A DNA stretch of 64,000 nucleotides, taken from NCBI GenBank assembly GCA_015062245.1, contig SUVA01000006.1:1753-65752 (forward strand), given 5' to 3'. This document shows, one piece after another, positions 11,945 through 61,242 of the stretch (positions within the stretch are counted from its first letter, which is position 1; each line of letters opens with the position of its first letter). The stretch comes from Alphaproteobacteria bacterium (GTDB lineage Bacteria > Pseudomonadota > Alphaproteobacteria > CAAHEQ01 > UBA3637). Both the position numbers and the translations under genes were made by a program. Below the pieces are notes generated by a model that did not search any database, had not been told where the DNA came from, and saw only the letters and a list, made by a program, of their open reading frames with translations.

Positions 11945-11999
11945 AATAACTCCTTTTTCTTTTTAAAATTGCATATTTTTTTTAAATTGTCCAGTAAAA

Positions 12000-12785
12000 T
12001 TATTTTGTTTTTCTTTTTAATGCCATTGCAACAAACGGGCAAAATTGTTTTTTCTTGTCAAAAACGTTTGTTTTTGATATTTTTCCCGTATCATCAATGG
12101 TGGCATATTCTATACTGCTTATCGGTAAGTTTTCTTTGCCTGTGTATTTTAAAGCTATACCATTGGTCAGGACGCTTTGTTGCATAAAACGATTATAATC
12201 CTGTTTGAAATCGGGATTGTTTTGACACAAATAATCGGTTAAAGTTTGGAAAAATACGGCATCGGCACATCCTTGACAGGGATTGCCCCCTTCTTTTCGT
12301 ATGAAATTTTGTTGCATTGTCGGGGCAAAGTGGCTGGCACCTTTGATTGTTAAACAGATATCATCATTTTCTTTTTTTAATTGAATGGATTGAATGCTGG
12401 TTAAAAGACTTTCATTTGACGGTAATTGAATGTTCAGATTTTGCATTTTTTTATTAATAAAATCTTGATGTTTTGCAAATAAATCGCATAACCCCGGTGC
12501 ACATTCCACATCTGCTTGCCACAACGGATAAGTAATTTTTTCTTTTTCTGTATCAATCCCCACAATGATGGCTTCTTTCAACATTTGTTGAAAATTTAAA
12601 AATTGAATATGGTTTTCGGCCAGATTTTCATTTGACCAAACATAAAATCCATTTGCCTGTCCACCAATACCTTGACCGATGGGTTTTGCACCTTCTTTAA
12701 AAAATGATTTAAAATCATCGGGATTTGTTCCGACATGGTAAAAACGGACGCTTTGTTTTTGTTCTAATGTTTTTTGAAGGGTCAT
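12000..12785 (-). CDS. Orphan protein, paralog of 48464..49243; possible ADP-ribosyltransferase fold
   Basis: Shares FYH, DFKSFF[KR]EGAK, GFYVWSN, KYTGK and CPF with 48464..49243; SD GGAGG upstream; fold is inference. Confidence 0.7.
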   Translation of the reverse strand: MTLQKTLEQKQSVRFYHVGTNPDDFKSFFKEGAKPIGQGIGGQANGFYVWSNENLAENHIQFLNFQQMLKEAIIVGIDTEKEKITYPLWQADVECAPGLCDLFAKHQDFINKKMQNLNIQLPSNESLLTSIQSIQLKKENDDICLTIKGASHFAPTMQQNFIRKEGGNPCQGCADAVFFQTLTDYLCQNNPDFKQDYNRFMQQSVLTNGIALKYTGKENLPISSIEYATIDDTGKISKTNVFDKKKQFCPFVAMALKRKTK

Positions 12786-17200: not shown

Positions 17201-17630
17201 TGGATTGCCCGTTTTAATACCGGCCGATTATATCAATGAATTGGATGTGCGGATGGATTTATATCATCGTATGGGTGAAATTCGCACATTGGAAGAAGTA
17301 AATACGATGCGTTCAGAGTTAAAGGACCGTTTTGGTATGTATCCTGTGGAAACGGAAAATCTGTTTTTGACATTGGAATTAAAACTTTTGGCCCGTCAAG
17401 CGCATATCGAACGATTGGATGCGGGTGAAAAGGGTGCAACAATTTCATTCTTTAACAACACTTTCCCGAATCCGGCCGGTTTAGTGGATTATATCAAATC
17501 TCAGGTTGGGACAATGAAAATCCGACCTGATCAAAAAGTGGTGGCCATTCGTTCATGGAAAAATACGGATACCCGATTAAAAGGTATCCGTGATATGATT
17601 CAAAAAATTGCCGAATTGGCCGTTCATTAA
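14259..17630 (+). CDS. mfd: Transcription-repair coupling factor
   Basis: GDVGFGKTEVA, DEEQHFGV, QLRGRVGR, TRCF C-terminus. Confidence 0.97.
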   Translation: MINQIYSGVPDGYEAFVLVKQLQKGHVLYVASDEKKAMRTYETLLRIFPKIPVLFYPAWDTVPYDRTSPSSDIVGNQLDTLIQLQRLKKNTVVITSVPAVSQLIPPTDVFSKSIKKLAVGDKVDFDELKSFLVRLGYQSTDVVMQAGDFAVRGEIVDIFTPGLSLPVRLDFFDDELESIRFFNPTTQRTTDILKEFEIKPVRLFELTEDNCHLFRSRYRELFDNPVQDMIYQAVSQMRYMDGMEHYLPLFYSQMVSLFDYLPNATVFVGTTFEESLKAREAQVNDYYQARSQFQSPNAPAYHPLPPDLFFISSDSMNQYLKKQNVIRLTPFQSEKSKNQGATPSRDFVDIRVQKDKDLFLEIADYVRSCPKRVVMTTLTEGAGDRLVALFKEKELALNFSDDFNQALKKAPSVMVAPFETGFQTEDLLVLTETDMFGQRLQSLPKRRKAQDFIADISSLSKGDLVVHTLHGIGRFVGLETIQVAGAAHDCLLLEYAENARLFVPVENTDVLSRYGSGEVALDRLGNPSFANRKAKLQKDLMQMADKLMKIAGKRALHQMPKILAPHGLYQEFCARFPYTETEDQLRTVSEIESDLSMGKPMDRLVCGDVGFGKTEVAMRAAFLAVMAGYQVAVIAPTTLLARQHTQNFIQRFDGFPIRIASLSRLVSARQSKQVKDELQKGSLDIVVGTHALLSKTLSFKNLGLVIVDEEQHFGVKHKERLKEMQTGVHVLTLTATPIPRTLQLSLSGVRDLSVIATPPVDRLAVKTYVMSFDPVVMKEAILRENFRGGQTFVVVPRISDMDDVYDDLKILLPDLKMVKAHGQMPPTQLEKIMSDFTQGDYDVLIATSIIESGLDLPRVNTMIVYRADMFGLAGLYQLRGRVGRGKQKAYAYLTTTGKLSENARKRLEVMQKLDSLGAGFMLASHDLDIRGAGNLLGSEQSGHIREIGVALYQKMLAEAVQSLKHDKTKSVDMDFSPQISVGLPVLIPADYINELDVRMDLYHRMGEIRTLEEVNTMRSELKDRFGMYPVETENLFLTLELKLLARQAHIERLDAGEKGATISFFNNTFPNPAGLVDYIKSQVGTMKIRPDQKVVAIRSWKNTDTRLKGIRDMIQKIAELAVH

Positions 17631-18022
17631 ATGGCATCATCCTTTGGTGGTGTATAGGTGTTTTCCGTTTCGTTCCAATTATTACCCCATTGGTTGATGA
17701 CGCTGTTTTTAACTTTTGGGCAATCATCAGTTGTTGAAAATTCAATCGTTACCACGCCGTTTGAATTAACGCTTAAAGAGCTAACACATTTATAATCATC
17801 CTTTTTTTTACCGATGGCTTTCCAAATAGCATCATTGTCATAAAATTTTATCATTGTTTTGCCGGTCATAGATGCGATGGATACCAATTCGGCTGTTTGA
17901 TTGGCTTTGTTCATACTAACCGCAGATTGATATCCCATAACACCGGTCATACCGATAATCCCAATTAAAGCCAAAACAGCCAGCATTTCAACCAATGACT
18001 TTCCTGTTTCATTTTTTTTCAT
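17627..18022 (-). CDS. Short type IV pilin-like protein
   Basis: Class III signal peptide ETG|KSLVEMLAVLALIGII with Glu at +5; one Cys pair; own promoter. Confidence 0.8.
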   Translation of the reverse strand: MKKNETGKSLVEMLAVLALIGIIGMTGVMGYQSAVSMNKANQTAELVSIASMTGKTMIKFYDNDAIWKAIGKKKDDYKCVSSLSVNSNGVVTIEFSTTDDCPKVKNSVINQWGNNWNETENTYTPPKDDAI

Positions 18023-18085: not shown

Positions 18086-18808
18086 TTAAACTTGTTTTTG
18101 ATTTTTGGTGTAAGGAATAAAAATTCCATCTCTTTTACGGCTGATATGATTGATAAATCCGTTGTAATCATACACAGGTTGAGGATGATTTTGTTCGTTC
18201 ATCCAAATTTTTAACCTTGGTAAATTTTCGGGCGTGCTGATTAAACCGTAAAGGTGCGCTGGGTTTTGTTTGAAATTGACATTTGCCATATAGGCATCAT
18301 CTTTTGCCATTTGGTATTCTGCATCATTTTGTGCTTTTAAAACGAAAATAACACCGGCGGGTAAAAATCCAATATAAGAATTTAAACCGGCATATCCCAA
18401 GACACTCGTTTCCACTTGATCTTTTGTTGTGGCGGAAAATTTGCCCTTTGGATCGCCACTGGTGGGAATTGTCCATAAATCTCTGCCCGAAATAATGCGC
18501 CCGCTTTTGATAATTTTTTCGGCATTATAAATGGGTGTTGCATGAAAAATCAAACCGTCTGAATCAATCAAATTTTTTTCCAACTTTTTGCTAAAAGTAT
18601 GCATCTGTTCATTCCGATAATCTATGTCAGATTGACTATTTCTTCTTAAAAATTTCAGTTTTCCACGAACGTTTGTCAGACGGAATTGAGTTTCCAGCAT
18701 TTTGTGGCGTAATTCAGGAGAATAATTGTTTAAAATCTGCTGAATTTTTTCTCTTAAATATTCAGCCTTTCTTTCCAATAAAAATCTTTTTTCTTTAATG
18801 GTTTGCAT
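18086..18808 (-). CDS. Orphan protein downstream of rho; possible ART-like fold
   Basis: 240 codons starting 4 nt after the rho stop; LIFHAT...IIKSGRIIS resembles the first strand and helix of ART folds (inference). Confidence 0.6.
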   Translation of the reverse strand: MQTIKEKRFLLERKAEYLREKIQQILNNYSPELRHKMLETQFRLTNVRGKLKFLRRNSQSDIDYRNEQMHTFSKKLEKNLIDSDGLIFHATPIYNAEKIIKSGRIISGRDLWTIPTSGDPKGKFSATTKDQVETSVLGYAGLNSYIGFLPAGVIFVLKAQNDAEYQMAKDDAYMANVNFKQNPAHLYGLISTPENLPRLKIWMNEQNHPQPVYDYNGFINHISRKRDGIFIPYTKNQKQV

Positions 18809-18812
18809 CGAA

Positions 18813-20075
18813 TTATTGATTCATTGAGGTAAAGAAATCGTCATTATTTTTGGTCAGTTTTAATTTTTCCATTAAAAATTCCATAGATTCGGTTACCCCC
18901 ATCGGGATTAAAATACGGCGCAACATCCACATTTTGGGCAGTTTATTTTTATCCACCAACAATTCTTCTTTGCGTGTGCCGGATTTTGTTACATCAATGG
19001 CGGGGAAGATACGTTTGTCGGAAACTTTTCTGTCCAAAACGATTTCGCTGTTTCCCGTTCCTTTGAATTCTTCAAAGATAACTTCGTCCATTCGTGAGCC
19101 TGTATCCACCAAGGCTGTTCCGAAAATGGTCAAAGAACCACCTTCTTCTATATTACGGGCAGCACCGAAAAAGCGTTTGGGTTTTTGCAAGGCATTGGCA
19201 TCCACACCACCGGTTAAAACTTTACCTGAACTGGGCACAACCGTGTTATAGGCCCGTGCTAAACGTGTAATGGAATCCAATAAAATAACCACATCTTTTT
19301 TATGTTCCACCAAGCGTTTTGCCTTTTCAATCACCATTTCGGCCACCTGCACATGGCGTGAGGCCGGTTCGTCAAATGTGGAAGAAATCACTTCACCTTT
19401 GACCGAACGAATCATATCTGTCACTTCTTCGGGGCGTTCGTCAATCAACAGCATAATTAAATGGGCATTGGGATAGTTGGCGCTGATAGCATGGGCAATA
19501 TTTTGCAACATCACGGTTTTACCTGTTCTGGGTGGGGCCACAATCAATGAGCGTTGACCAAAACCCTGCGGACAGATTAAATCCACAATTCGGTCGGTTA
19601 AATCTTTTTTCTTGGTATCGTTTGTTTCGTGTTCCATTTTGATGGGCGTTTCGGGATATAAAGGGGTTAAATCATCAAAGTTGACACGATAGCGCAATTT
19701 TTCCGGATCATCAAAATTGACCTGATTGATTTTGGATAAAGAAAAGTATTTTTCATTATTTTTGGGGGCCAAAATTTCACCGCTGACGGTATCGCCAGTG
19801 CGTAATCCATAACGTTTAATGTGTTGCGGGGCGACATAGATATCATCAGAACCGGCCAAATAATTGGCTTCAGGCGAACGCAAAAAACCAAATCCGTCTT
19901 GCATAACCTGTAAAACACCTTCACCGAATAAAGTCGTTTCGGTTTCGGCCAAGCGTTTTAAAATGGCATACATCATATCTTGGGTGCGTAAACTGGCGGC
20001 GTTTTCGATGCCCAATTCTTCGGCATATTGTAATAATTCGGTGGGTGATTTTTTCTTTAAATCCTGCAATTGCAT
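18813..20075 (-). CDS. rho: Transcription termination factor Rho
   Basis: [36 protein letters not shown]. Confidence 0.98.
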
Positions 20076-20161: not shown

Positions 20162-20249
20162 GAAAATAAATAATCAATTTTCCCGCTTGACAAGGTGTGT
20201 AAATTATGCTAGTGTGGGGATAAGGCATAAGAAAGGAGAGCCGATTACA

Positions 20250-20327
20250 ATGTGTTTAAATTGCGTTAAAGGTCAAAATAAAAGGACTTTGTACACACAC
20301 ACACACACAAGTAGTTTTGCAAATTAA
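20250..20327 (+). CDS. 25-aa leader peptide MCLNCVKGQNKRTLYTHTHTSSFAN
   Basis: AAGGAG SD upstream; same length and frame as the paralogous peptide at 31944. Confidence 0.7.
   Translation: MCLNCVKGQNKRTLYTHTHTSSFAN
20293..20309 (+). repeat. AC dinucleotide tract, 17 nt
   Basis: acacacacacacacaca read directly. Confidence 0.97.
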
Positions 20328-20417
20328 GTTATGCCTTGGCATAATAAACCCACTGTATGATTACAGTGGGTTTAATTGCGTTTAAATAATGTCAAACAAT
20401 TAACAAAGGAGTAAAAA

Positions 20418-20711
20418 ATGGCATTAGCATTCATAACAACAAAACAAACCGCAGAATTTCGAAAGAGGCATGGCATAGACCCAAAAGCAAAGCTTACAGA
20501 GGAACAACGCCAACAATTGTATACCGAAGAAGTTGTAGATAGATATAAAAGGCTTGCTGAAAAATCAACACTGACGCAACGTTTAAGGGCGGCTTCCTTG
20601 GATGGAAAAAATAATGATAGTATGCAAATTAATCAAAATTTAAGAGAATCTGAACAGAAAAACTCTGAAAACACAGCAGTCATGAATAAAATGAAAAGAG
20701 AAGGCCGTTAG
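20418..20711 (+). CDS. Orphan 97-aa protein downstream of leader copy 1
   Basis: AAGGAG SD; ends NKMKREGR; followed by a terminator. Confidence 0.75.
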   Translation: MALAFITTKQTAEFRKRHGIDPKAKLTEEQRQQLYTEEVVDRYKRLAEKSTLTQRLRAASLDGKNNDSMQINQNLRESEQKNSENTAVMNKMKREGR

Positions 20712-20728
20712 AAAAAGACTATAAAATC

Positions 20729-20756
20729 AGCCCTTTGTTTTAAGGGGCTTTTTTTT
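20729..20756 (+). terminator. Intrinsic terminator, probably bidirectional
   Basis: agcccttt-gtttt-aaggggct stem followed by a T run, between convergent genes. Confidence 0.75.
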
Positions 20757-25391: not shown

Positions 25392-26156
25392 CTATTTCTT
25401 ATGGTTAAGAATCTGTTCCAAACCTTGTTCCAGTTCATTCAGATAATTTTTAACCGTCCAATCAACGGCAATATCCGCAAAACGAATTTCTATTCCCAAT
25501 ACCAAAGTTGATTCTGTTTTATATTGAATTTTTGTTTTTGGTGGGATTTCAAAATAATCCCGCAAAAAACGATTCATATCACGCTTGTGATTTTCTGATA
25601 AAGTTTCAGATGAATTGACAAAAATAACTTTTTGATTTTTAATTATTTTAATTATTTTTGTTTTTTCTGATTTTGTCAGCTTTACCAATTTTTCATAAAA
25701 CAGATTTAACACCCTTTCAATGGGGGTTGCATCGGTCAAATCAGTGATAATTTTACCGGCGATTTTTAAAAAATCATGGCTGATAAAATTTTCCAATTCT
25801 GATTTTAGGTTTTCGTTTTGTATTTTGATTTGATCATGCAATTGCAATTTTAATTGGTTTGCCTCTTGTTTAATAACTTCCAAACTTTCTTTTCGTTGTT
25901 GGGTCAATTCCTTTGTCAAATCATTGCGCTGTTTTTGTAATGATTTTTCAAAGTCTTCTTTTTCGGATTTCAGTGATTGAAATTCCGATTCAGCCTGACG
26001 TTGTAAAGAAGTGGCCGAATCAATCTTTTCATTGATTTCGTTTTTACGTTTTTCAATAACATCCAAAATAGGTTGGTATAAAAAACGTTTTAATATCCAA
26101 ACCAAAATGAACAGATTGAAAATTTGGGCAACAAAGGTAATCCAATCAATTTGCAT
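25392..26156 (-). CDS. atpF: N-ATPase b subunit with delta-like C-terminal extension
   Basis: IDWITFVAQIFNLFIL anchor, coiled coil, 254 aa; no separate atpH in the operon. Confidence 0.88.
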   Translation of the reverse strand: MQIDWITFVAQIFNLFILVWILKRFLYQPILDVIEKRKNEINEKIDSATSLQRQAESEFQSLKSEKEDFEKSLQKQRNDLTKELTQQRKESLEVIKQEANQLKLQLHDQIKIQNENLKSELENFISHDFLKIAGKIITDLTDATPIERVLNLFYEKLVKLTKSEKTKIIKIIKNQKVIFVNSSETLSENHKRDMNRFLRDYFEIPPKTKIQYKTESTLVLGIEIRFADIAVDWTVKNYLNELEQGLEQILNHKK

Positions 26157-26170
26157 ATTTTAAATCTTCC

Positions 26171-26449
26171 TTATTTGGCAGCCTGTTCAACGACATAATC
26201 CCAAAATGGGTTGGCATACAAAATCAAAATGGTAATCACGAACGCATAAATAGCAGTAGATTCAATCATCGCCATTGACACAAACAAAGTGCGTGTGATA
26301 TTTGATGATTCATCCGGTTGTTGTGCCATAGAACGCAGGGCATTTGCAGCCACATTGGCCTCACCGATTGCCGGCCCGATACCACCGATAGCGATACACA
26401 AAGCCGCCGAAATAATTGACATAGCACCGATTAAAGTGATAGCATCCAT
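26171..26449 (-). CDS. atpE: N-ATPase c subunit
   Basis: Two TM helices with PAIGE and IESTAIY (Na+-type ligand pattern). Confidence 0.93.
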   Translation of the reverse strand: MDAITLIGAMSIISAALCIAIGGIGPAIGEANVAANALRSMAQQPDESSNITRTLFVSMAMIESTAIYAFVITILILYANPFWDYVVEQAAK

Positions 26450-26452
26450 TTT

Positions 26453-27151
26453 TTATTCTCCTTTTGTATCGGTTGATTGAACAAAAGACTCTTTGGGGGC
26501 GACCGCCGATACATATACAATCGCCAAGAGTGCAAAAATATAAGCCTGAATTGTTCCCGTTAATAATCCCAATATTTGCATGGGCAAAGGAACAATGAAA
26601 GGAACCAACATAATTAAAACCGAACCAATAACGGCGCCACTGAGCATATTTCCGTATAAACGAAACGCCAATGAAAAAGTTGATGAAAAATCGCTGATGA
26701 TATTCATGGGCAACATCACCGGTGTCGGTTCTATAAACTTTTTAAAATATCCTTTCCAACCGGCATTTTTAACGCCATAATAAGGAATGGCAAAAAATAC
26801 ACAAGATGCAAAGGCAACCGTTGTTGTTAAACTGGTTGTCGGGACTTTAAACCACGGAATGATACTGAGCAGATTTGACATAGCGATAAACAGGAAAAAA
26901 GTACCGATTAAAGACAGATACTTTTTGGGATTATCACCGGATACGTCTTTGATTTGACCTTGAATGGCCGAAACAATCATTTCCATGATAATTTGAATTT
27001 TACCAATTTTTCCATTGGTCTTTAAATTGTGTGTCATCCAAACGGATAAGCCGGCCAAAACCGCCATCACAATCCATGTATAAAAAATCGTGGCGTTTAT
27101 GGTAATCGGTCCGATTTGAAAGACAATCGTTTGGTCTAAATTTTCAAGCAT
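26453..27151 (-). CDS. atpB: N-ATPase a subunit
   Basis: SLAFRLYGN, GTIQAYIFALL. Confidence 0.93.
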   Translation of the reverse strand: MLENLDQTIVFQIGPITINATIFYTWIVMAVLAGLSVWMTHNLKTNGKIGKIQIIMEMIVSAIQGQIKDVSGDNPKKYLSLIGTFFLFIAMSNLLSIIPWFKVPTTSLTTTVAFASCVFFAIPYYGVKNAGWKGYFKKFIEPTPVMLPMNIISDFSSTFSLAFRLYGNMLSGAVIGSVLIMLVPFIVPLPMQILGLLTGTIQAYIFALLAIVYVSAVAPKESFVQSTDTKGE

Positions 27152-27440
27152 GTTTTTTTCCTTTGTCTTTCAAAAAATAAACCAAAAGTAATCGTGTGAT
27201 AATGAATGCTAAAAACATCCATATCAATTTAACGGGATTTTTTGATGCCAATAAAATGGCAACGCTTAAAAAGATAGTCAGGCGCAAAAGAGATGAAAAA
27301 AACAAAAACATTCCTTTTCGTTTGATATTCGGTAAAATCTTTAAAGAATACCATAGTAATGAAAAATAGACCAAACTGAGCAGAATACCGCACAATAAAG
27401 ATTCCAAAACCATATCAATGGAGAGCTTAAAGTTTTCCAT
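27144..27440 (-). CDS. atpR: N-ATPase AtpR subunit
   Basis: Small hydrophobic ORF with SSLLRL at the atpR position of atpDCQRBEFAG. Confidence 0.75.
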   Translation of the reverse strand: MENFKLSIDMVLESLLCGILLSLVYFSLLWYSLKILPNIKRKGMFLFFSSLLRLTIFLSVAILLASKNPVKLIWMFLAFIITRLLLVYFLKDKGKKHA

Positions 27441-27727
27441 TTTTGCTCCTTTTTTTAACCTGATAAGATTTTTTTAACCAAACGGTGGCGTTGATGAAAC
27501 CAAATATAAAGCCGACAATAATCAAATTCAAAGTCCATGAAATCATCTCTTGCGGATAAACTTTATCCAAAAAGCGCCCCAAAAGCAAAAACAAAAGAAC
27601 AGGGATAGCAATCTGCCAACCGTAAATGCTTAAAATTGCCACATTATAATCAATTTTAATCGTTCCTCTTTGTTGACGATTATTTGCTTTTTTTATCAAC
27701 TGTTTTGCGGTCTTGTTCATTTGTTTT

Positions 27728-27741
<14 letters not shown>
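27427..27741 (-). CDS. atpQ: N-ATPase AtpQ (AtpI/AtpZ-like) subunit
   Basis: GWQIAIP...LGRFLD pattern and operon position. Confidence 0.78.
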
Positions 27742-29572
<1,831 letters not shown>

Positions 29573-31876: not shown

Positions 31877-31943
31877 TCGCTTGACAAGTGGTGAAAGGTT
31901 CGCTAGTATGGGGATAAGTAAAGAAAATGGGAGGCTATTTAAA

Positions 31944-32021
31944 ATGTGTTTAAACCACGGTAAAGGTGTAAATAGATGGACCTTGTACACACACACACAC
32001 ACATGTAATTTTGGATATTAA
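31944..32021 (+). CDS. 25-aa leader peptide MCLNHGKGVNRWTLYTHTHTCNFGY
   Basis: GGGAGG SD upstream; same length and frame as the peptide at 20250. Confidence 0.7.
   Translation: MCLNHGKGVNRWTLYTHTHTCNFGY
31987..32003 (+). repeat. AC dinucleotide tract, 17 nt
   Basis: acacacacacacacaca read directly. Confidence 0.97.
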
Positions 32022-32159
32022 GTTGTGCCTTGGCACAACCGACCCACTGTATGTCAAATACGGTGGGTTAAACTGTATTTGTCATTTTGAAATGGGCTCG
32101 CCCATTCAGAATGACAATTTTAATTACTGTCATAACAAATAAAAGAAAGGAGTCAAAAA

Positions 32160-33314
32160 ATGTCAGTAAAAAACAAAACAAACAAAAACGATAAAAGAAG
32201 TCAAAAGGGGCGCAGTATGGTTGAAATGCTGGGGGTGCTTGCCATCGTGGGCGTTTTGTCCGTGGGCGGTGTGTACGGCTATGGTGTCGCCATGAAAAAA
32301 CACAAAGCCAATGAATTATTGCACCAGGCCTCAATGCTGGCCACTACCATATCGGCACAAATCCAAAGTAAAGGTGAATTGCCCCAAAGCATTGAAGATT
32401 TTGGCAATGGTAAATACGGGACATTTAATCCCCCCAGTGAAGCAAATGCTGAACAATTTACCATGCAAATCACAGGTATGGATTCTGCGGTTTGTACCCA
32501 AATGGAAAAGATGGCGAGCGGAATGGTGCGTGAAGCCAAATGTAATGGCACAACATTGACCTTAACCTATAACAACAATTTATCCAGCGACAAAGTCGCC
32601 GCCGATTATAATGGTGATGAAGACGGTTGTAAAGACAGTGGTCGTAAATACTGTTCAGGTTCAAATTCTTGCGTTGCTTTGGATAAGGAATGCGGATGTA
32701 GTGGCACAAATAACGGCTGTCAAAAATGCGATACAGAAACGGGTTCTTTGGTTGCCGATGATGAAAAAGAAGGTGAAAATTGCACCACATCTGATGGTAA
32801 AGCAGGAACATGTAATGATGGCGTGTGTGAGGAAAAAGTGGATTGTCCTAATGGCTTGGATGCGAATGAAGAGGGAAAGTGTATTTGTACAGACCACACA
32901 ACGAATCAATGTGGATTGGGATATTATTGCAAGTTTGTTCCGGATGATGATGCTTGTGGTGATAGCGACCGTGGAGATGGTGTTTGTACAGCCGTTGGCA
33001 GTGGTACTTCCATCAAAGACGGGGCTTATTTAAAGAGTTCTGATCCTATGGATTGGTGGAGTGCATACAGTTGGTGTAAAGGGAACGACATGGATTTGAT
33101 AACGGGGACAATAGACGGCATACCGTTGAACAGTGATTACTTTGATGAGGATAATTATATATTGTATAACTACTTTGGAGAGTATTTTAAATTTTGGACA
33201 GGTTATGAGGATGACCATTCCTGTTACACGTGGTACGCTTACGCTGAGCCTGACCATGAGTGGGTCGGCTCGGACGCCAGTCGCGACTGCGAGTTCTCCG
33301 CTTTGTGTCAGTAG
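32160..33314 (+). CDS. Large type IV pilin-like protein with Cys-rich stalk and putative C-type-lectin-fold tip
   Basis: SQKG|RSMVEMLGVLAIVGVL class III signal; many Cys; DWWSAYSWC...FWTG...SCYTWY...SALCQ tip (fold is inference). Confidence 0.85.
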   Translation: MSVKNKTNKNDKRSQKGRSMVEMLGVLAIVGVLSVGGVYGYGVAMKKHKANELLHQASMLATTISAQIQSKGELPQSIEDFGNGKYGTFNPPSEANAEQFTMQITGMDSAVCTQMEKMASGMVREAKCNGTTLTLTYNNNLSSDKVAADYNGDEDGCKDSGRKYCSGSNSCVALDKECGCSGTNNGCQKCDTETGSLVADDEKEGENCTTSDGKAGTCNDGVCEEKVDCPNGLDANEEGKCICTDHTTNQCGLGYYCKFVPDDDACGDSDRGDGVCTAVGSGTSIKDGAYLKSSDPMDWWSAYSWCKGNDMDLITGTIDGIPLNSDYFDEDNYILYNYFGEYFKFWTGYEDDHSCYTWYAYAEPDHEWVGSDASRDCEFSALCQ

Positions 33315-38129: not shown

Positions 38130-39303
38130 ATTTCAATCCGTTAAATGTATGGCACATGGGGCATAATCCGTGCCAAGAGGGGGATTTATAACCGCATGTT
38201 TCGCATGCCCAAGCGTTTTCGTCTTCTTCCGTTTCAACGGCTTTATCCTCCCATTCACGGGCTTTATCTTCATGATTCCACGCATCTCGTTCCACACGGG
38301 CCTGCATCAAAGCCACCTGTTTTGTCAAAGCATAGCTTTGCAAAAATTCATCCAGATATTTTTTTGCCTGAATCGGTTCTTGATTATTCAATGATATATC
38401 GGCCAATGCCAACAAAGAAAGGCGTTCATAAGGATTTTCTGATACCAAATTTTTAATGGCTGAAAAGCGTTTTTTACCATCCAAAGATACCAATAATTCT
38501 TTATAAGCTTCATAAACGGGCCAACAAGGATTTTTTTGCCATATTTTTTGGAATATCTTGCCGGCTTTTTGTGGGTTTTGTTTGGCATAGGCAATGGCAA
38601 TGGCCGGATTTAACGGATCGGTTTTATAGGCGCTTTTCACATCATCGCATAAAAATAAACAAGTTGCTCTTCGGCGATTATAATCTTCTGTGCTTAAAAT
38701 CGGTTTCATTTTCTTTAAATAGACAAGTGCTTCTTCCCAATTGTTTTCCTGACAGGACAATTGAAAGTTTGCCTGTAATGCCCAAGGTGTTTTTTTCTTT
38801 TTATCGGGCAATCCGTCCAACAAAAGACGCATTTGTTGTAAATCCCCATCATTATTGGCTGTGCGGAATAAACCACGAATGCCACCCAATGTTGTTTGGG
38901 GAAATTGCATCAATTGGTGATAGGAATCTTCATCCGGCAACAACAAACAACGGATTGTCCAATAAATATAACTTTCCTGACCAAAAAGTTTTTCGGCTTT
39001 TTCCAATAATTCAGGGACAGCTTCCATTTCTTGGTTGGTAAGGGTCAATAATACCGTTAAAATTAAATCATGCCTTTTTTGTTCTTTAATTTTAAGATGA
39101 TGTTTTTTCAAAAAACCAAATAAACGAAAAGGTAAAAACAGTAAATGCCAACACCACAAGACGGCAAAAATTAAGCCGGCAAAAGTGAAAATTGAACCGT
39201 AAAGACGATAATTTTCAAATTGAATTTCCATCATTGTATCGGAATTTGTGATTTGAAAACCCAAAAAGAATAAGATGGCGGATAAAAGGAATAGTTTAAT
39301 CAT
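38128..39303 (-). CDS. HemY-like TPR membrane protein
   Basis: Two N-terminal TM helices, helical repeats, C-terminal WACETC...CPMC as in alphaproteobacterial HemY. Confidence 0.7.
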   Translation of the reverse strand: MIKLFLLSAILFFLGFQITNSDTMMEIQFENYRLYGSIFTFAGLIFAVLWCWHLLFLPFRLFGFLKKHHLKIKEQKRHDLILTVLLTLTNQEMEAVPELLEKAEKLFGQESYIYWTIRCLLLPDEDSYHQLMQFPQTTLGGIRGLFRTANNDGDLQQMRLLLDGLPDKKKKTPWALQANFQLSCQENNWEEALVYLKKMKPILSTEDYNRRRATCLFLCDDVKSAYKTDPLNPAIAIAYAKQNPQKAGKIFQKIWQKNPCWPVYEAYKELLVSLDGKKRFSAIKNLVSENPYERLSLLALADISLNNQEPIQAKKYLDEFLQSYALTKQVALMQARVERDAWNHEDKAREWEDKAVETEEDENAWACETCGYKSPSWHGLCPMCHTFNGLK

Positions 39304-40126
39304 TTTGCACCCCCTGTTCAGCGTTAAGTTCGTTTAATCCATCTTTGATTTTGATAATTGTTTCACCAAAGTCGGTTGTTTTTTTAAGTTTTTGTTGCCA
39401 ATTTTCGGGTAGCTTTAAAGTCAAAGTCATGGCATTTTGTATTTGATGGTCTATGATTGCCTGTTGAATTTGATTTAAAATATCCTTTGGGGTACTTCCT
39501 GATGAATTCGTGTTTTGAATATCAAAGAAAAAGTAGGGAATAACTTTGATATACTTTATGGGCGATTTTTCCATAAGTGTTTGTGAAACAAGTAATTCCT
39601 TTTTTTCTTGTCTGAAAGTATAAAGCCATTTGTCCCAGGCCGACATTTCATTGGTATTACAATAAGGTTTTAAAAGTTGTGTTAAATCTTTGAAGTCGGA
39701 ATTTTTATTTAAATTACTGATAAATTCACGGCAATCCTTTTGGGTGACAAAATCGGCCCAAGTATAATTTAAAATCGTTTCATCTGATTGAGATGGTATT
39801 TCATTATCCGCAGGTAATAAATCATTTTGTTCGGTGGTTTCTGATATATCATTTCCTTCGTCTGTGTTTGTTTCAGACTCGCTTGTTTGTGAATCCAAAG
39901 ATATTTCTTCGTGGTTATCTTCAACTGAATTTGGTTCAGAAATTTCTGTTTGAACGACCGTTTGGGATTGTAAATCAATCTCGGTTTCTGAATCAGCCTC
40001 AACTTCTGTTGCCGTGTTTTCTTGCGTTGAATCAAGTTCTTGTGATAAAACGGGATTGACATAAGTCAACATCCCGCAAAAGACAGTCAAAGAAAATACT
40101 TTGGCGATATTTGTTTTTTTTATCAT
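39296..40126 (-). CDS. Hypothetical membrane-anchored protein (possibly COG4223/HemX-like)
   Basis: N-terminal anchor, acidic linker, position upstream of the hemY-like gene. Confidence 0.45.
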   Translation of the reverse strand: MIKKTNIAKVFSLTVFCGMLTYVNPVLSQELDSTQENTATEVEADSETEIDLQSQTVVQTEISEPNSVEDNHEEISLDSQTSESETNTDEGNDISETTEQNDLLPADNEIPSQSDETILNYTWADFVTQKDCREFISNLNKNSDFKDLTQLLKPYCNTNEMSAWDKWLYTFRQEKKELLVSQTLMEKSPIKYIKVIPYFFFDIQNTNSSGSTPKDILNQIQQAIIDHQIQNAMTLTLKLPENWQQKLKKTTDFGETIIKIKDGLNELNAEQGVQND

Positions 40127-40149
40127 TTCTCCCCCCCCCTTTTTTTGTT

Positions 40150-47233: not shown

Positions 47234-47953
47234 TTAACGTTCAGAACCAGACCTTTGTTTCAAAAGACGTGGTGTTTTATTAGCCGCCGCAGAAAGGAGA
47301 GATTTAAGTCCTGTCTTTACTACAACTTTTCCATCAGAATCATCCTCATAGACTGTAACCTTACCTTCTGCATCTTTCACTAAAGTCCGTCCTGGACGCC
47401 CCATTGTATCAAATGCAGAATGTTCTTTAATCTCCATTACTTTTCCTGCATTATCTTTGTGAATTTCACTAATAATATATCCCTTTTCGTCATACCCTAA
47501 TTCAATACTTTTTACTGTTCTACCAATCCCATCCTTTATAATTGTTTTTATAGCGTTTCCATTTTCATCAAACGTGTCTTCAAAGATTGATGTTATATTG
47601 CCATTTTCATCCTTCTTGAATTCAGTATCTCCTAGTAGTTTACCATTAGCATCTTTATGATTAATTAGTCTAACACTTGGGTCTTCATTTGCAGTTCCAT
47701 CTTCATTAAGGATATATTCATCAGTACCTACTACTTTACCATCTGCATCCTTTATGATTACAGCAGTATTATTTCCTTTTTCATCAAAGATCCATTCCTC
47801 TGTACTTGTTACTTTACCATTCGCATCTTTAAAAGACTGAATACCTTTTCCTGTTTTTTCATCAAATCTCTGCTCCACAGTGGATAATACTTTCCCTGTT
47901 TCATCTCGTTCAAATATTGTCTTACCTTCTTTGAAATATTGTATAACTTTCAT
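47234..47953 (-). CDS. Orphan beta-hairpin repeat protein (YD/RHS-like repeats)
   Basis: Repeated KD[AG]xG[KR]V...[FY]DE[KN]G units; tail RLLKQRSGSER. Confidence 0.75.
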   Translation of the reverse strand: MKVIQYFKEGKTIFERDETGKVLSTVEQRFDEKTGKGIQSFKDANGKVTSTEEWIFDEKGNNTAVIIKDADGKVVGTDEYILNEDGTANEDPSVRLINHKDANGKLLGDTEFKKDENGNITSIFEDTFDENGNAIKTIIKDGIGRTVKSIELGYDEKGYIISEIHKDNAGKVMEIKEHSAFDTMGRPGRTLVKDAEGKVTVYEDDSDGKVVVKTGLKSLLSAAANKTPRLLKQRSGSER

Positions 47954-48463: not shown

Positions 48464-49243
48464 TTACCGCTGTAGATTTTTTAATTTCAAAAAAGGACAA
48501 ACTTGTTGGCTCCCTTTTTCTTTATCCCATAAAACAGTTTGCTTTAAATGATCCTTTTCATCCACTAAAACATGTGTTGCTGATGTGATGGTTAAAGGTT
48601 TTTTTCCAGTATATTTAAAGGCATTTCCCTTTTGATAAGTTGTTTGCATTAATTGAGAATAATCCTCTTTAAATTGAGGGTTGGTATTGCATAATACATC
48701 TACAAGAGTTTGCCATAAAACAGCTTCTGATGCTGGATGAATAGGACTATACTTTTTATAATGGGTAAGTACAAGAGGAAAATCTGAATTAAAAGATGTT
48801 TTCCCCTTAAACTGAAAAATCGTTTTGTCTTCTTCTTTTTGACATGAAATTTCACATATTTTTTTCAAAAATAATTCATTATTGTGCAAGGTAATATTCA
48901 AATTTTTTAAATTTTGATTGATAAAATTATCATATTGATCGAATAACTCAAATAATCCCATGGCATATTCCACATCTATCTGCCATATAGGATATTTCAG
49001 AGATTCTTTCGGAACACTGATTCCCAGAATCAATGCTTCACGTTGGGATAAAGATTTATTTAAAAATCCGGAATTTAACAAATGGATATGGTTTTTAGCC
49101 AAAGTCTTATTTGACCACACATAAAATCCTTTGGCATCAGCATTAGATAAGGTCGTTTTGGCTCCTTCGCGAAAGAATGATTTAAAATCGTTTGTATCTG
49201 TTGCGATGTGATAAAAAGTTATAAATTTATTTTTTAGAGCCAT
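48464..49243 (-). CDS. Orphan protein, paralog of 12000..12785; possible ADP-ribosyltransferase fold
   Basis: Full-length motif conservation with 12000..12785; own promoter at 49262-49290. Confidence 0.72.
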   Translation of the reverse strand: MALKNKFITFYHIATDTNDFKSFFREGAKTTLSNADAKGFYVWSNKTLAKNHIHLLNSGFLNKSLSQREALILGISVPKESLKYPIWQIDVEYAMGLFELFDQYDNFINQNLKNLNITLHNNELFLKKICEISCQKEEDKTIFQFKGKTSFNSDFPLVLTHYKKYSPIHPASEAVLWQTLVDVLCNTNPQFKEDYSQLMQTTYQKGNAFKYTGKKPLTITSATHVLVDEKDHLKQTVLWDKEKGSQQVCPFLKLKNLQR

Positions 49244-59702: not shown

Positions 59703-61181
59703 ATGGCAATGGAAGAAAATTTAGGACATGAACAACGTCAGGTTCGTTTGAACAAACTGCGTGCTTTGGAAAGTAAAGGTATCAATCCTTATCCGCATGC
59801 ATTTAAACCGACGGCAACCAGTGCGACTTTGTCCCAAAAATACGCCCAATTGCCATCGGATACCCAAACAGAAGATGTTGTTCTGGTGGCAGGGCGTGTG
59901 CGTGCCATTCGTAATTCGGGTATGTTTATGGATGTTTATGACGTGACCGGAAAAGTTCAAATTTATACTTCCAAAGAACATTCAGATTCATCCGTTTTGG
60001 AAATGCTGGATATGATTGATATCGGTGATATGATTGGTATTCAAGGAACAGTTCGCAGAACAAAACGTGGTGAGTTGTCTGTCAATACGCAACAAATTAC
60101 CATGTTGGCAAAGGCTTTGTTGCCACTTCCTGAAAAATTCCACGGTTTGACAGATACAGACACAAAGTATCGCCACCGTGAATTGGATATGATAATGAAT
60201 GATGAAACGATAAAAACCTTTATCAAACGCAGTAAAATTTATGAATCTATCCGTCAATTGTTATTATCAAAAGGATTGTTGGAGGTTGAAACACCTATAT
60301 TACAGGCAGTCAAGGGGGGCGCTGCTGCAAAACCTTTTATTACACACCATAATACATTAGATATGGATTTGTTTTTACGTGTGGCGCCGGAGCTATTTTT
60401 AAAACGTTTGGTTGTAGGGGGGCTGCCTGGTGTTTTTGAATTTGCAAAAGATTTTCGTAATGAAGGTATTGATACGACCCACAATCCTGAATTTACATGT
60501 TTGGAGTTGTATATTCCTTATATGGACTATAACGATATGGCCGATTTATTTGAAGAAATCGTTCGTAAAGCGTGTTTGGACGTGAATGGAACGTTGGAAA
60601 TTGATTATGATGGCAAACATTTTGATTTATCCCAACCTTTCGCCCGTGTGACAATGAACGATATGATTAAAAAATACACAGGCGTTGATTTTATGGCGAT
60701 TGAATCTGATGAACAGGCCAGGATAGAAGCCGAAAAATTGGCTGTTCATGTGGATGAAACAGATGATTGGGGGCATTGTATGGCGGCTGTTTTTGAAGAA
60801 AAATGTGAAGAGCATTTAATTCAACCGACCATTGTAATGGATCATCCGAAATCATTGAATCCGTTATGTAAAACGCATCGCACTGAACCACGTTTGGTGG
60901 AACAGTTTGAACCCTATATCAACGGTAAAGAAATGGGGAATGCCTATTCTGAATTGACAAATCCTTTGGATCAACGTGAACGTTTTGAAGAACAGGTTGC
61001 CGCCCGTGAAGCCGGTGATGAAGAGGCAGATATGATGGATGATGATTTTGTTCAAGCTTTGGAACATGGTTTGCCACCGACAGGCGGTATGGGAATCGGT
61101 ATAGACCGTTTGGTGATGTTTTTGACGGGCAATACATCCATTCGTGATGTTTTGGCGTTCCCGACAATGCGTAAAAAGTAA
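59703..61181 (+). CDS. lysS: Lysine--tRNA ligase, class II
   Basis: OB fold, FRNEGID..HNPEFT, GLPPTGGMGIGIDRL. Confidence 0.97.
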   Translation: MAMEENLGHEQRQVRLNKLRALESKGINPYPHAFKPTATSATLSQKYAQLPSDTQTEDVVLVAGRVRAIRNSGMFMDVYDVTGKVQIYTSKEHSDSSVLEMLDMIDIGDMIGIQGTVRRTKRGELSVNTQQITMLAKALLPLPEKFHGLTDTDTKYRHRELDMIMNDETIKTFIKRSKIYESIRQLLLSKGLLEVETPILQAVKGGAAAKPFITHHNTLDMDLFLRVAPELFLKRLVVGGLPGVFEFAKDFRNEGIDTTHNPEFTCLELYIPYMDYNDMADLFEEIVRKACLDVNGTLEIDYDGKHFDLSQPFARVTMNDMIKKYTGVDFMAIESDEQARIEAEKLAVHVDETDDWGHCMAAVFEEKCEEHLIQPTIVMDHPKSLNPLCKTHRTEPRLVEQFEPYINGKEMGNAYSELTNPLDQRERFEEQVAAREAGDEEADMMDDDFVQALEHGLPPTGGMGIGIDRLVMFLTGNTSIRDVLAFPTMRKK

Positions 61182-61242
61182 TGGTAATAAGGAAAAATGA
61201 ATAAGGTTTGAAAGTTTAAAAATATCTTTACAAGGAGGGAAA

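What the first reader, a model, noticed from the sequence alone, without database searches (positions are those of the whole stretch)
20184..20417. The same ~200-nt leader sits in front of an unrelated gene, with covarying hairpins
Seen: the two copies are about 11.7 kb apart and colinear from CGCTTGACAAG to the second hairpin, but their downstream genes are unrelated. Hairpin 1 is TTATGCC-TT-GGCATAA here and GTTGTGCC-TT-GGCACAAC in copy 2 (paired A-T to G-C change). Hairpin 2 is a perfect 12-bp stem here and an 11-bp stem with a G-U pair and a different loop in copy 2. The uORF length (25 aa) and the MCLN..KG.N..TLYTHTHT pattern are conserved despite substitutions. Inference: selection acts on RNA structure and reading frame, so this is a portable regulatory module defining a set of independently switching genes.
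Basis: partly seen in the sequence, partly recalled or inferred. Interest (0 to 1): 0.8.

Follow-up and report, generated by a model that had tools for sequence, protein, structure and literature searches.

The report
Repeat-switched leader peptide attenuator module
A portable ~200-290-nt leader (promoter, tiny upstream reading frame holding an unstable AC-AC-AC… run, then terminator-like hairpins) sits in front of several pilin-like surface-protein genes and one unrelated gene in an uncultured alphaproteobacterium. The number of AC units differs between samples in a way that should flip each gene on or off heritably, a mechanism so far shown experimentally only in Streptococcus gallolyticus pili.

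Summary
Two colinear copies (20184-20417 and 31878-32159, 78% identical) precede unrelated genes, and no Rfam, phage, plasmid or transposon match was found.

The decisive feature is the (AC)8 run inside the 25-codon upstream ORF (uORF). In 9 distinct leader sequences from 5 loci in related metagenome assemblies, the flanks are 84-100% alike but the AC count is 5, 6, 7, 8, 9 or 10.

The three reading frames have a fixed layout:
- **n≡1 (mod 3):** stop two codons after the repeat.
- **n≡2:** stop 1 nt before hairpin 1.
- **n≡0:** the frame stays open through all hairpins and ends 12-22 nt past the last one. In the pilin-type leaders that is 15-17 nt before the main ATG.

Natural alleles of all three states exist, including 13 read-through uORFs called as genes.

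Best reading: a slipped-strand, heritable version of leader-peptide attenuation. It matches in principle the GCAGA-repeat leader of S. gallolyticus pil1/pil3 but shares no recognisable sequence with it, and here it is multi-copy and in a Gram-negative lineage. The function is inferred, not shown.

Hairpin covariation is weak: one compensatory pair.

Verdict: a new variant of a known kind.

The parts
20187..20215 (+). Copy 1 promoter: TTGACA (20187-20192), 17-nt spacer, TAGTGT (20210-20215), followed by the invariant TGGGGATA
   Evidence: Read. The homologous site in copy 2 scores 10/12 in the promoter scan. The block is invariant or nearly so in all 10 leaders aligned. It lies back to back with a 12/12 promoter on the minus strand (20161-20133) that faces rho.
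20250..20327 (+). Copy 1 uORF (25 codons plus TAA) with its own Shine-Dalgarno sequence (SD), AAGGAG at 20239-20244
20293..20308 (+). (AC)8 simple-sequence repeat inside the uORF (codons TAC ACA CAC ACA CAC ACA)
   Evidence: Orthologous alleles carry 5, 7 and 10 units.
20312..20314 (+). TAG stop used when n≡1 (mod 3); second codon after the repeat
   Evidence: It is kept as TAG or TAA in every leader although the neighbouring bases vary (AAGTAG / ATGTAA / ATTTAG / ATTTAA).
20329..20344 (+). Hairpin 1 (7 bp; the n≡2 stop TAA at 20325-20327 lies 1 nt upstream)
   Evidence: The only compensatory pair is here (A-U / G.U / G-C), and three different loops are seen.
20345..20374 (+). Hairpin 2, terminator-like (13 bp, loop 4, tail ATTGCGTTTA); the last hairpin in the copy-1 type
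   Evidence: Terminator scan, inverted-repeat search. The stem is invariant and four loop variants exist.
20383..20385 (+). TAA stop of the read-through frame (n≡0 mod 3); about 9-12 nt past hairpin 2 and 32 nt before the main ATG
20408..20711 (+). SD (GGAG 20408-20411) and 97-aa ORF of unknown function (20418-20711), followed by a canonical terminator at 20729-20749
31881..31909 (+). Copy 2 promoter: TTGACA-17-TAGTAT
   Evidence: Promoter scan, 10/12 matches.
31944..32021 (+). Copy 2 uORF (25 codons plus TAA) holding (AC)8 at 31987-32002; the n≡1 stop TAA is at 32006-32008
32022..32039 (+). Copy 2 hairpin 1 (GTTGTGCC-TT-GGCACAAC)
32041..32069 (+). Copy 2 hairpin 2 (12 pairs including one G.U, -17.8 kcal/mol)
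32079..32117 (+). Copy 2 hairpin 3 (16 pairs, -20.1 kcal/mol, tail TTTTAATT); absent from copy 1 and the likely main terminator of the pilin-type leaders
   Evidence: It is present in L066, L070a/b, L073 and L084.
32140..32142 (+). TAA stop of the read-through frame (n≡0 mod 3); 22 nt past hairpin 3 and 17 nt before the main ATG
   Evidence: The natural read-through alleles L070a, L073 and L084 end at the homologous stop.
32149..33314 (+). SD (GGAG 32149-32152) and 384-aa protein (32160-33314) with a prepilin-like N-terminus
   Evidence: Large family; NCBI names relatives 'type II secretion system protein'. Sub-threshold prepilin N-terminal matches. AF2 model with a long N-terminal helix and a lectin-like C-terminus.

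Best explanation
Each copy is a self-contained, heritable on/off (possibly three-level) switch.

1. A sigma-70-type promoter drives a leader RNA.
2. A ribosome translates a short uORF that contains an (AC)n run.
3. Slipped-strand mispairing during replication adds or removes AC units (2 nt each), so the uORF cycles through the three reading frames.
4. With n≡1 (mod 3) the ribosome stops two codons after the repeat. With n≡2 it stops 1 nt before hairpin 1. In both cases the terminator-like hairpin(s) downstream can fold, and most transcripts should end, by intrinsic termination and/or Rho acting on untranslated RNA. The gene is low or OFF.
5. With n≡0 the uORF stays open through hairpins 1 and 2 (and 3). 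The ribosome following the polymerase prevents the hairpins from forming and leaves no untranslated gap. Transcription then reaches the pilin-like or 97-aa gene. The gene is ON.

Because every copy has its own repeat, each gene switches independently.

**Shown here:** the anatomy, the repeat-number polymorphism, the conserved three-frame stop layout, and natural alleles in all three states.

**Inferred:** that the hairpins terminate transcription, that translation relieves this, which frame is ON, and the switching rate.
For: 1. **Repeat-number polymorphism with constant flanks.**
   - Copy-1 locus: window n=8, L065 n=7, L059 n=10, L063 n=5, at 94-96% identity to the window's leader, the difference lying largely in the repeat run itself.
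   - htpG-linked locus: n=9 in L070a and n=6 in L073-L082.
   - L070b n=10; L066 and window copy 2 n=8; L083/L084 n=9.
2. **The AC runs stand out.** They are the only di- to heptanucleotide repeats in the window and in the eight related loci scanned.
3. **The frame layout is identical in all eight leaders tested**.
   - n≡1: stop at post-repeat position 3.
   - n≡2: stop at position 16, 1 nt before hairpin 1.
   - n≡0: open to position 74 (copy-1 type, 12 nt past hairpin 2) or 134-137 (pilin type, 22 nt past hairpin 3 and 15-17 nt before the main ATG).
   - The frame-B stop survives as TAG or TAA while its neighbours vary.
4. **Read-through frame openness against dinucleotide shuffles**: 125-241 of 5000 for the pilin-type leaders, 65 of 5000 for L084 with its 96-nt insertion, and 581 of 5000 for copy 1. 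The hairpin-2 loop indel (3 nt) and the hairpin-3 insertions (51, 96 nt) are all multiples of 3.
5. **Natural read-through alleles exist.** Thirteen are called as genes: P0125-P0137, 42-98 aa, eleven of them with YTHTH (n=6) or YTHTHTH (n=9), and P0137 with a shorter, degenerate run (LHTH). A short-frame allele is P0138.
6. **Hairpin stems are invariant while loops vary**, and 99.5% of cells are paired. Hairpin 2 of copy 1 passes the terminator scan.
7. **The downstream genes suit phase variation.** They are a multi-paralogue family with near-identical prepilin-like N-termini and divergent C-terminal domains.
8. **The same logic has been demonstrated experimentally** for S. gallolyticus pil1/pil3 (PMC3894217).
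Against: - No expression data exist. Everything about ON and OFF is inference.
- The U-tracts after hairpins 2 and 3 (TTTAATT, TTAAACT, TTTTAATT) are weaker than those of clear terminators in the same genome, such as 20729-20749 followed by T8. Intrinsic termination may therefore be partial.
- Repeat numbers come from consensus assemblies of different samples. Variation within one population was not observed.
- The identical n=6 allele of the htpG-linked locus is found in at least 10 samples. That could mean it is stable, but the look-up was by exact peptide, so other alleles at that locus were invisible.
- Openness of the read-through frame is only modestly significant per leader, and the leaders are homologous rather than independent. 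The read-through alleles came from gene calls, which favours open frames.
- Covariation in the hairpins is not significant.
- No role is established for hairpin 1 or for the conserved K-G-x-N in the uORF.
Confidence: 0.6

Rival explanations
1. The switch is the same (AC-run frame choice) but the output is translational, not transcriptional. In the n≡0 frame the uORF ribosome terminates 15-17 nt before the main ATG, next to its SD, and re-initiates or opens the site (translational coupling). In the other frames the main ORF is poorly translated.
For: The read-through frame of the pilin-type leaders ends at a conserved TAA 5-7 nt before the SD and 15-17 nt before the ATG in all five variants, even with a 96-nt insertion.
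Against: The main SD (AAAGGAG at optimal spacing) is predicted unpaired in the MFE of both copies, so there is nothing obvious to unmask. In the copy-1 type the read-through stop is 32 nt upstream of the ATG. The conserved strong hairpins would have no role.
Confidence: 0.15
2. The leader is a constitutive 5' UTR, for example for mRNA stability or binding of a regulator protein. The AC run is a neutral microsatellite (or a CA-rich translation enhancer) whose length drifts without consequence.
For: No functional data exist. Hairpin covariation is weak. One allele (n=6) is widespread.
Against: It does not explain the strictly conserved placement of stops in two frames, the long open third frame, the in-frame-only indels, the uORF's own conserved SD and ATG, or why the only non-homopolymer repeat tracts found in the window and related loci sit inside these uORFs.
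Confidence: 0.12
3. It is an independent small gene, either an sRNA ending at hairpin 2/3 or a 25-66-aa micro-protein. It merely happens to lie upstream of other genes and acts in trans.
For: It has its own promoter and a terminator-like 3' end, and the AC run could serve as a seed. The uORF N-terminus keeps K7, G8 and N10.
Against: In all 9 distinct leader sequences it lies directly upstream of, and co-oriented with, an ORF at fixed spacing. No conserved second promoter is visible for that ORF. The peptide after the repeat is not conserved as protein: changes follow the nucleotides and stems, and hairpin-loop codons vary freely. No Rfam family matches.
Confidence: 0.08
4. It is a classical amino-acid-sensing attenuator that reads Thr/His-tRNA charging through the THTHT codons.
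For: Thr and His codons run inside a leader peptide upstream of a terminator-like hairpin.
Against: No conserved alternative (antiterminator) pairing exists. The two candidate pairings are copy-specific (L066 checked by eye). The downstream genes are pilin-like or unknown, not biosynthetic. The number of Thr/His codons varies from 3 to 7 between alleles.
Confidence: 0.03

Closest known systems
S. gallolyticus pil1/pil3 leader-peptide phase variation with attenuation (Danne et al. 2014, PLoS Pathog, PMC3894217)
   Same: Both have a promoter, an SD plus a short leader ORF containing a simple-sequence repeat whose unit is not a multiple of 3, a downstream stem-loop before the structural gene, and repeat number differing between isolates. 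In one frame the leader peptide stops well upstream of the stem-loop. Other frames extend it into or past the stem-loop. Both are present at more than one pilus-type locus per genome, and the regulated genes are surface filament subunits or adhesins.
   Different: There is no sequence relationship: AC dinucleotide with 5-10 units here, GCAGA pentamer with 13-23 units there. The host is an uncultured Gram-negative alphaproteobacterium, not a Firmicute. The targets are type IV-pilin-like proteins, not sortase pili. There are two or three hairpins instead of one. Here two frames are short and only one reads through; in S. gallolyticus both out-of-frame states lengthen the peptide. The module also precedes an unrelated 97-aa gene. 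Nothing has been tested experimentally here.
Classical SSR contingency loci (e.g. Neisseria opa CTCTT, H. influenzae lic1 CAAT, Campylobacter poly-G); from general knowledge and the discussion in PMC3894217
   Same: Slipped-strand changes in repeat number shift a reading frame and give stochastic, reversible, locus-by-locus switching of surface structures.
   Different: There the repeat lies in the structural gene itself or in promoter spacing. Here the regulated protein is never frameshifted: the repeat is in a separate uORF and is proposed to act through transcription read-through.
Leader-peptide transcription attenuation (trp, his; tnaC/speFL with Rho), as reviewed in PMC12360218
   Same: The position of the ribosome on a leader ORF decides whether downstream termination occurs.
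   Different: Those systems sense a metabolite through ribosome stalling, and the trp/his type also uses alternative RNA pairings. Here ribosome position would be fixed genetically by the reading frame, and no conserved antiterminator pairing was found.
Invertible-DNA leaders that toggle termination (E. coli fim, C. difficile flgB/cwpV); PMC12360218 and general knowledge
   Same: A heritable, stochastic switch located in the 5' leader acts through premature termination.
   Different: Those need a recombinase and inverted repeats. Here there are no flanking inverted repeats and the variable element is a microsatellite.

Membership tests
SSR-in-leader-peptide attenuation switch (S. gallolyticus pil1 type; a functional class, not a homology family) | Promoter followed by an SD and a short leader ORF directly upstream of, and co-oriented with, the regulated gene | tested here: met
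   TTGACA-17-TAGTRT, an SD and a 20-25-codon uORF are present in all 10 aligned leaders.
SSR-in-leader-peptide attenuation switch (S. gallolyticus pil1 type; a functional class, not a homology family) | A simple-sequence repeat inside the leader ORF, with a unit length that is not a multiple of 3 | tested here: met
   (AC)n lies within the uORF at 20293-20308 and 31987-32002.
SSR-in-leader-peptide attenuation switch (S. gallolyticus pil1 type; a functional class, not a homology family) | Repeat number differs between strains or isolates at the same locus | tested here: met
   Copy-1 locus n = 5, 7, 8, 10; htpG-linked locus n = 6, 9. Variation within a single population was not testable.
SSR-in-leader-peptide attenuation switch (S. 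gallolyticus pil1 type; a functional class, not a homology family) | A stable stem-loop between the leader ORF and the structural gene that acts as a premature terminator | tested here: inconclusive
   Conserved hairpins of -17.8 and -20.1 kcal/mol are present, and hairpin 2 of copy 1 passes the terminator scan. Their U-tracts are imperfect, and termination itself cannot be tested with these tools.
SSR-in-leader-peptide attenuation switch (S. gallolyticus pil1 type; a functional class, not a homology family) | Frame changes move the leader stop codon from well upstream of the stem-loop to within or beyond it | tested here: met
   One search shows this for all eight leaders tested. Natural alleles of each state were found.
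SSR-in-leader-peptide attenuation switch (S. gallolyticus pil1 type; a functional class, not a homology family) | Heterogeneous, translation-dependent expression that tracks leader length | not testable with these tools
   This needs reporters, single-cell assays or metatranscriptomes.
SSR-in-leader-peptide attenuation switch (S. gallolyticus pil1 type; a functional class, not a homology family) | Sequence homology to the S. gallolyticus element (GCAGA repeats) | tested here: not met
   The repeat unit is AC, not GCAGA. This is judged from the published description; no alignment to the streptococcal sequence was made. It is an analogue, not a homologue.
Any Rfam 15 RNA family | A covariance-model match at or above the gathering score | tested here: not met
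   Only two tRNAs were found in the window. The best sub-threshold hits on the two leaders have E >= 1.
Amino-acid-sensing leader attenuator (trp/his/thr type) | A run of cognate codons, mutually exclusive terminator and antiterminator pairings, and a downstream biosynthetic operon | tested here: not met
   No conserved alternative pairing exists. The downstream genes are pilin-like or unknown.
Transposon or MITE end, or phage/plasmid element | Terminal inverted repeats, an adjacent transposase, or matches in mobile-element collections | tested here: not met
   No terminal inverted repeats bound the module. There were 0 hits in viral contigs, plasmids and phages. The neighbours are housekeeping genes.
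Type IV pilin / T2SS pseudopilin (for the 384-aa downstream protein) | A class III signal peptide (basic leader, Gly at -1, Glu at +5, hydrophobic helix) and a pilin fold | tested here: inconclusive
   The motif KG|RSMVEMLGVLAIVGVL has Glu at +5 but an atypical residue at +1. TIGR02532 scores 12.9 bits against a cutoff of 16.3, and Pfam N_methyl on the 131-aa paralogue scores 16.5 against 21.2. NCBI names relatives 'type II secretion system protein'. The best Foldseek pilin hit is 4d40 with E = 0.14 and probability 0.97.

The most novel reading that the evidence does not exclude
The module may be a genuine three-state device that uses all three reading frames.

- **n≡1:** the ribosome leaves before hairpin 1, giving tight OFF.
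- **n≡2:** the ribosome parks on hairpin 1, giving an intermediate level.
- **n≡0:** full read-through, giving ON.

In this reading hairpin 1 is a pause or synchronising hairpin. The module would be spread by recombination or gene conversion among many loci, so a single uncultured gut alphaproteobacterium runs a combinatorial repertoire of lectin-tipped pilin-like adhesins plus unrelated genes. That would be a multi-locus 'leader-peptide phasome' in a Gram-negative lineage, evolved independently of the streptococcal case.
Probability: 0.25. Interest if true: 0.75.

Novelty: new variant of a known kind. Interest (0 to 1): 0.62.

Why it matters
Phase variation through a repeat in a leader peptide coupled to attenuation has, in the literature I could search, a single worked example: S. 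gallolyticus pil1/pil3.

An unrelated element built on the same logic turns that example from a curiosity into a recurring design. This one uses a different repeat unit, lies in a different phylum, regulates a different pilus type, and is multi-copy and demonstrably portable.

It also gives a simple sequence signature for finding more. The signature is an SSR inside a short SD-led uORF, with stops in two frames and the third frame open across a hairpin.

For the organisms concerned, uncultured low-GC Alphaproteobacteria known only from metagenome assemblies, it predicts stochastic surface variation of pilin-like proteins with a predicted lectin-like C-terminal domain. It also warns annotators that the 42-98-aa 'hypothetical proteins' called upstream of these genes are leader-peptide alleles.

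Tried and rejected
- **Rfam:** a gathering-threshold scan of the window and permissive scans of both leaders found nothing.
- **DNA pattern scans:** the metagenome scan gave 57 loci, all chance microsatellite matches by BLAST against the leaders. The genome scan gave one true hit, L059.
- **Covariance model R1:** built from 10 leaders and searched over about 250 kb of held loci. It found no diverged extra copies, and the window has exactly two. Weak hits at 11991-12064 and 61158-61325 (E about 0.05) lack the AC run and were treated as noise.
- **Covariation test:** one compensatory pair, not significant.
- **Alternative pairings as antiterminators:** AAGGCATAA (20222-20230) against the 5' arm of hairpin 1 occurs only in the copy-1 type. 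The pairing of 31948-31962 with the 3' arm of hairpin 2 occurs only in window copy 2 and is not kept in L066. Both were rejected as conserved features.
- **UGUGU/ACACA pairing:** the MFE folds pair the uORF start with the repeat, but this is lost in leaders that start ATGGCT.
- **Other pilin-like paralogues:** P0006 (L067/L068), P0020 (L072) and P0016 (L069) have different 5' regions. The leader is therefore not universal in the family.
- **Last contig look-up:** the P0070 look-up returned the contig already held.
- **The 97-aa protein:** Pfam, NCBIfam and PDB gave nothing usable.
- **Mobile elements:** phage, plasmid and viral collections gave no match.
Full report
**1. Observation**

The window holds two colinear copies of a leader, 20184-20359 and 31878-32053. 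They are 78% identical without gaps and 11,694 nt apart, and they form the longest repeat in the window. Alignment shows homology starting at CGCTTGACAAG and running through two hairpins.

- Hairpin 1: TTATGCC-TT-GGCATAA vs GTTGTGCC-TT-GGCACAAC.
- Hairpin 2: a perfect stem vs a stem with one G.U and a different loop.
- A 25-codon uORF with the pattern MCLN..KG.N..TLYTHTHT.

The downstream proteins (97 aa at 20418-20711; 384 aa at 32160-33314) share no similarity. The 21-nt block TTGTACACACACACACACACA occurs twice against 0.00 expected. Both leaders fold better than shuffles, with z = -3.7 and -3.1. No Rfam family matches.

**2. Anatomy**

Each copy has the following parts, in order:
- A sigma-70-type promoter, TTGACA-17-TAGTRT, followed by the invariant TGGGGATA (for copy 2; read from the sequence for copy 1).
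- A Shine-Dalgarno sequence and an ATG.
- Thirteen codons, then TAC(ACA CAC)n, which is an (AC)8 run.
- Hairpin 1 (7 bp, -8.3 kcal/mol).
- Hairpin 2 (12-13 bp, -17.8 kcal/mol, flagged as terminator-like in copy 1).
- In copy 2 only, hairpin 3 (16 bp, -20.1 kcal/mol, tail TTTTAATT).
- A strong SD and the main ATG.

The AC runs are the only di- to heptanucleotide repeats in the 64-kb window and in the eight related loci scanned.

**3. Source and relatives**

The window is a JGI metagenome contig (3300032167, Ga0224413_10007509). The nearest named genome is a MAG labelled Alphaproteobacteria bacterium (JAZKXR01).

Further leaders were recovered through the downstream proteins and through gene-called uORFs:
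- **Copy-1 locus (97-aa gene):** L059, L063 and L065 carry the leader. L064 lacks it.
- **Copy-2 ortholog:** L066.
- **Two leaders on one contig:** L070a before a 383-aa pilin-like gene next to htpG-gatCAB, and L070b before a 601-aa paralogue.
- **Same sample as the window:** L073, a third copy before a 368-aa paralogue. The identical allele is on 13 contigs; the ten shown come from ten samples.
- **Leader with an insertion:** L083 and L084, with a 96-nt insertion in hairpin 3, before a 397-aa paralogue.

A covariance model built from 10 leaders finds no other copies in about 250 kb of held sequence, and exactly two in the window. Several contigs start at or just upstream of the gene (L063, L069, L071). 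For L063 and L071 the break falls inside the leader, which fits assembly breaks at a multi-copy element.

**4. The key result: AC-unit number varies while the flanks do not**

| Locus | Source | AC units (n) |
|---|---|---|
| Copy-1 locus | window | 8 |
| Copy-1 locus | L065 | 7 |
| Copy-1 locus | L059 | 10 |
| Copy-1 locus | L063 | 5 |
| htpG-linked locus | L070a | 9 |
| htpG-linked locus | L073-L082 | 6 |
| 601-aa paralogue | L070b | 10 |
| Copy-2 locus | window, L066 | 8 |
| 397-aa paralogue | L083, L084 | 9 |

The copy-1 alleles are 94-96% identical to the window's leader overall, and L059 is identical from the repeat to the main ATG. Sources.

**5. Frame logic**

I replaced n by 7, 8 or 9 in silico in eight leaders. 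The outcome was the same in every one:
- **n≡1 (mod 3):** stop at the second codon after the repeat, 14 nt before hairpin 1.
- **n≡2:** TAA 1 nt before hairpin 1.
- **n≡0:** the frame is open through every hairpin. It ends 12 nt past hairpin 2 in the copy-1 type (32 nt before the main ATG). In the pilin type it ends 22 nt past hairpin 3 (15-17 nt before the main ATG).

The frame-B stop is kept as TAG or TAA although the three bases before it vary (AAG, ATG, ATT).

Openness of the read-through frame was tested against dinucleotide shuffles. It is reached in 125-241 of 5000 shuffles for the pilin-type leaders, 65 of 5000 for L084, and 581 of 5000 for copy 1. The indels seen are all multiples of three: 3 nt in the hairpin-2 loop, and 51 and 96 nt in hairpin 3.

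These tests are not independent because the leaders are homologous. The read-through alleles were also found through gene calls, which favours open frames.

**6. Natural alleles of all three states**

A profile of the read-through peptides retrieved 13 called proteins of 42-98 aa, P0125-P0137. Eleven carry YTHTH (n=6) or YTHTHTH (n=9); P0137 carries a shorter, degenerate run (LHTH). It also retrieved one short-frame allele, P0138.

After the repeat the peptide is not conserved as protein. Differences follow the nucleotide and stem constraints, and hairpin-loop codons vary freely. What is maintained is an open frame, not a protein.

**7. RNA structure**

On the eight-sequence alignment, 99.5% of cells are paired. 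Only one pair shows a compensatory change: in hairpin 1, with G-C in 4 sequences, A-U in 3 and G.U in 1. Thirty of 500 shuffles reach the observed score. Covariation support is therefore weak.

Stems are invariant while loops change. Hairpin 1 has loops CUUG, GCAU and GUCA. Hairpin 2 has four loop variants. That pattern is compatible with structural constraint.

No conserved alternative (antiterminator) pairing was found.

**8. Downstream genes**

The 384-aa protein belongs to a family of at least 520 proteins, with several paralogues per contig. NCBI names some relatives 'type II secretion system protein'.

The paralogues share an almost identical N-terminus (MSVKNKTNKN.KRSQKGRSMVEMLGVLAIVGVLSVGG…) and diverge at the C-terminus. 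Prepilin N-terminal models match below threshold.

An AF2 model (pLDDT 84) shows a long N-terminal helix, a small alpha/beta head, a Cys-rich middle and a C-terminal domain. The weak Foldseek neighbours are the Bdellovibrio Bd2740 C-terminal domain, C-type lectin domains and type IV pilins, with no hit at E <= 0.001. 'Pilin-like surface adhesin' is a reasonable but unproven label.

The 97-aa protein has no recognisable family. Other members of the pilin-like family (P0006, P0016, P0020) lack this leader.

**9. Mechanism proposed**

Slipped-strand changes in (AC)n set the uORF frame. In the two short frames the ribosome leaves before hairpins 2 and 3, and transcripts terminate by intrinsic termination and/or Rho. 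In the read-through frame the ribosome traverses the hairpins and transcription reaches the gene.

What is shown: the anatomy, the polymorphism, the frame layout and the natural alleles. What is inferred: termination at the hairpins, relief by translation, which frame is ON, and the rates. Hairpin 1 may act as a pause or synchronising hairpin, which is speculation.

A translational-coupling version, a neutral-microsatellite reading, an independent sRNA or micro-protein, and an amino-acid-sensing attenuator are considered as rivals. I rate them lower.

**10. Comparison with known systems**

The literature search found one experimentally established precedent with the same logic: S. gallolyticus pil1/pil3. 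There, GCAGA repeats in a leader-peptide gene change the peptide's length. Long peptides reach or cross a stem-loop terminator and raise pilus transcription (PMC3894217). A second search found no other example.

The present element meets the sequence-level criteria of that class, but it is not homologous to it:
- AC dinucleotide rather than GCAGA pentamer.
- An alphaproteobacterial host.
- Type IV-pilin-like targets.
- Two or three hairpins.
- Only one of three frames reads through.
- At least five loci, including an unrelated gene.

It is not a transposon end, phage element or plasmid element.

**11. Verdict**

It is a new variant of a known kind. It is the second, independently evolved instance of leader-peptide SSR attenuation that I could find, and the first in a Gram-negative lineage and in multi-copy form. 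Confidence in the mechanism is about 0.6. Interest is 0.62.

Noticed in passing
window 40131-40139: A C9 run (G9 on the minus strand) lies 5 nt upstream of the ATG of a 276-aa acidic protein with a hydrophobic, signal-peptide-like N-terminus (39296-40126, minus strand). That places it in the gene's ribosome-binding region, within the 23-nt gap after a SurA-like gene. It could be a second, homopolymer-type phase-variable site.
   Followed up: partly
L064 1-110: In one sample the whole leader in front of the 96-aa gene is missing. The junction, TTGACAAAG|GAGTAAAAAATG, fits a deletion between the direct repeats ACAAAGG that flank the leader. A strong terminator lies just upstream, so this allele may be locked off.
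   Followed up: partly
L063 110-150: This copy-1 allele (n=5) carries six clustered substitutions right after the repeat. They make that ~30-nt patch look like the pilin-type leaders and turn the covarying hairpin-1 pair into G.U. This suggests gene conversion between leader copies. An assembly chimera seems less likely because the shared sequence on the right side is only ~11 nt.
   Followed up: partly
L084 205-330 and L083 3685-3810: A 96-nt GC-richer insertion with several small palindromes replaces the top of hairpin 3. It is in frame and stop-free in the read-through frame. Peptides P0132-P0134 point to related insertions of other lengths.
   Followed up: partly
window 20222-20230 vs 20329-20337: In the copy-1 type only, the 5' UTR contains AAGGCATAA, perfectly complementary to the 5' arm of hairpin 1. 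The MFE fold prefers this long-range pairing. It is absent from the pilin-type leaders, and its role is unknown.
   Followed up: partly
window 17627-18022 (minus strand): A 131-aa protein with the same kind of prepilin-like N-terminus (GKSLVEMLAVLALIGIIG) lies at the end of the apparent rho operon (rho 18813-20075, a 240-aa unknown at 18086-18808). It has no AC-run leader.
   Followed up: no
window 25392-29520: The ATP synthase operon between the two copies includes AtpR and ATPase_gene1 homologues (27144-27741). I recall such accessory genes as typical of N-type ATPase operons; this was not checked.
   Followed up: no
window 12593-12744 vs 49072-49217; 47557-47830: Two segments are 75-81% identical and about 36.5 kb apart (repeat families D5 and D7), probably from paralogous genes. 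Separately, there is a degenerate tandem array with ~42-96-nt spacing (D2). Neither was examined.
   Followed up: no
L063 start, L071 start, L069 start: Contigs from independent assemblies begin at the leader or just upstream of the pilin-like gene. For L063 and L071 this fits the multi-copy leader breaking short-read assemblies; the 133 nt held upstream of the gene in L069 show no leader. Copy number per genome is therefore probably under-counted.
   Followed up: no
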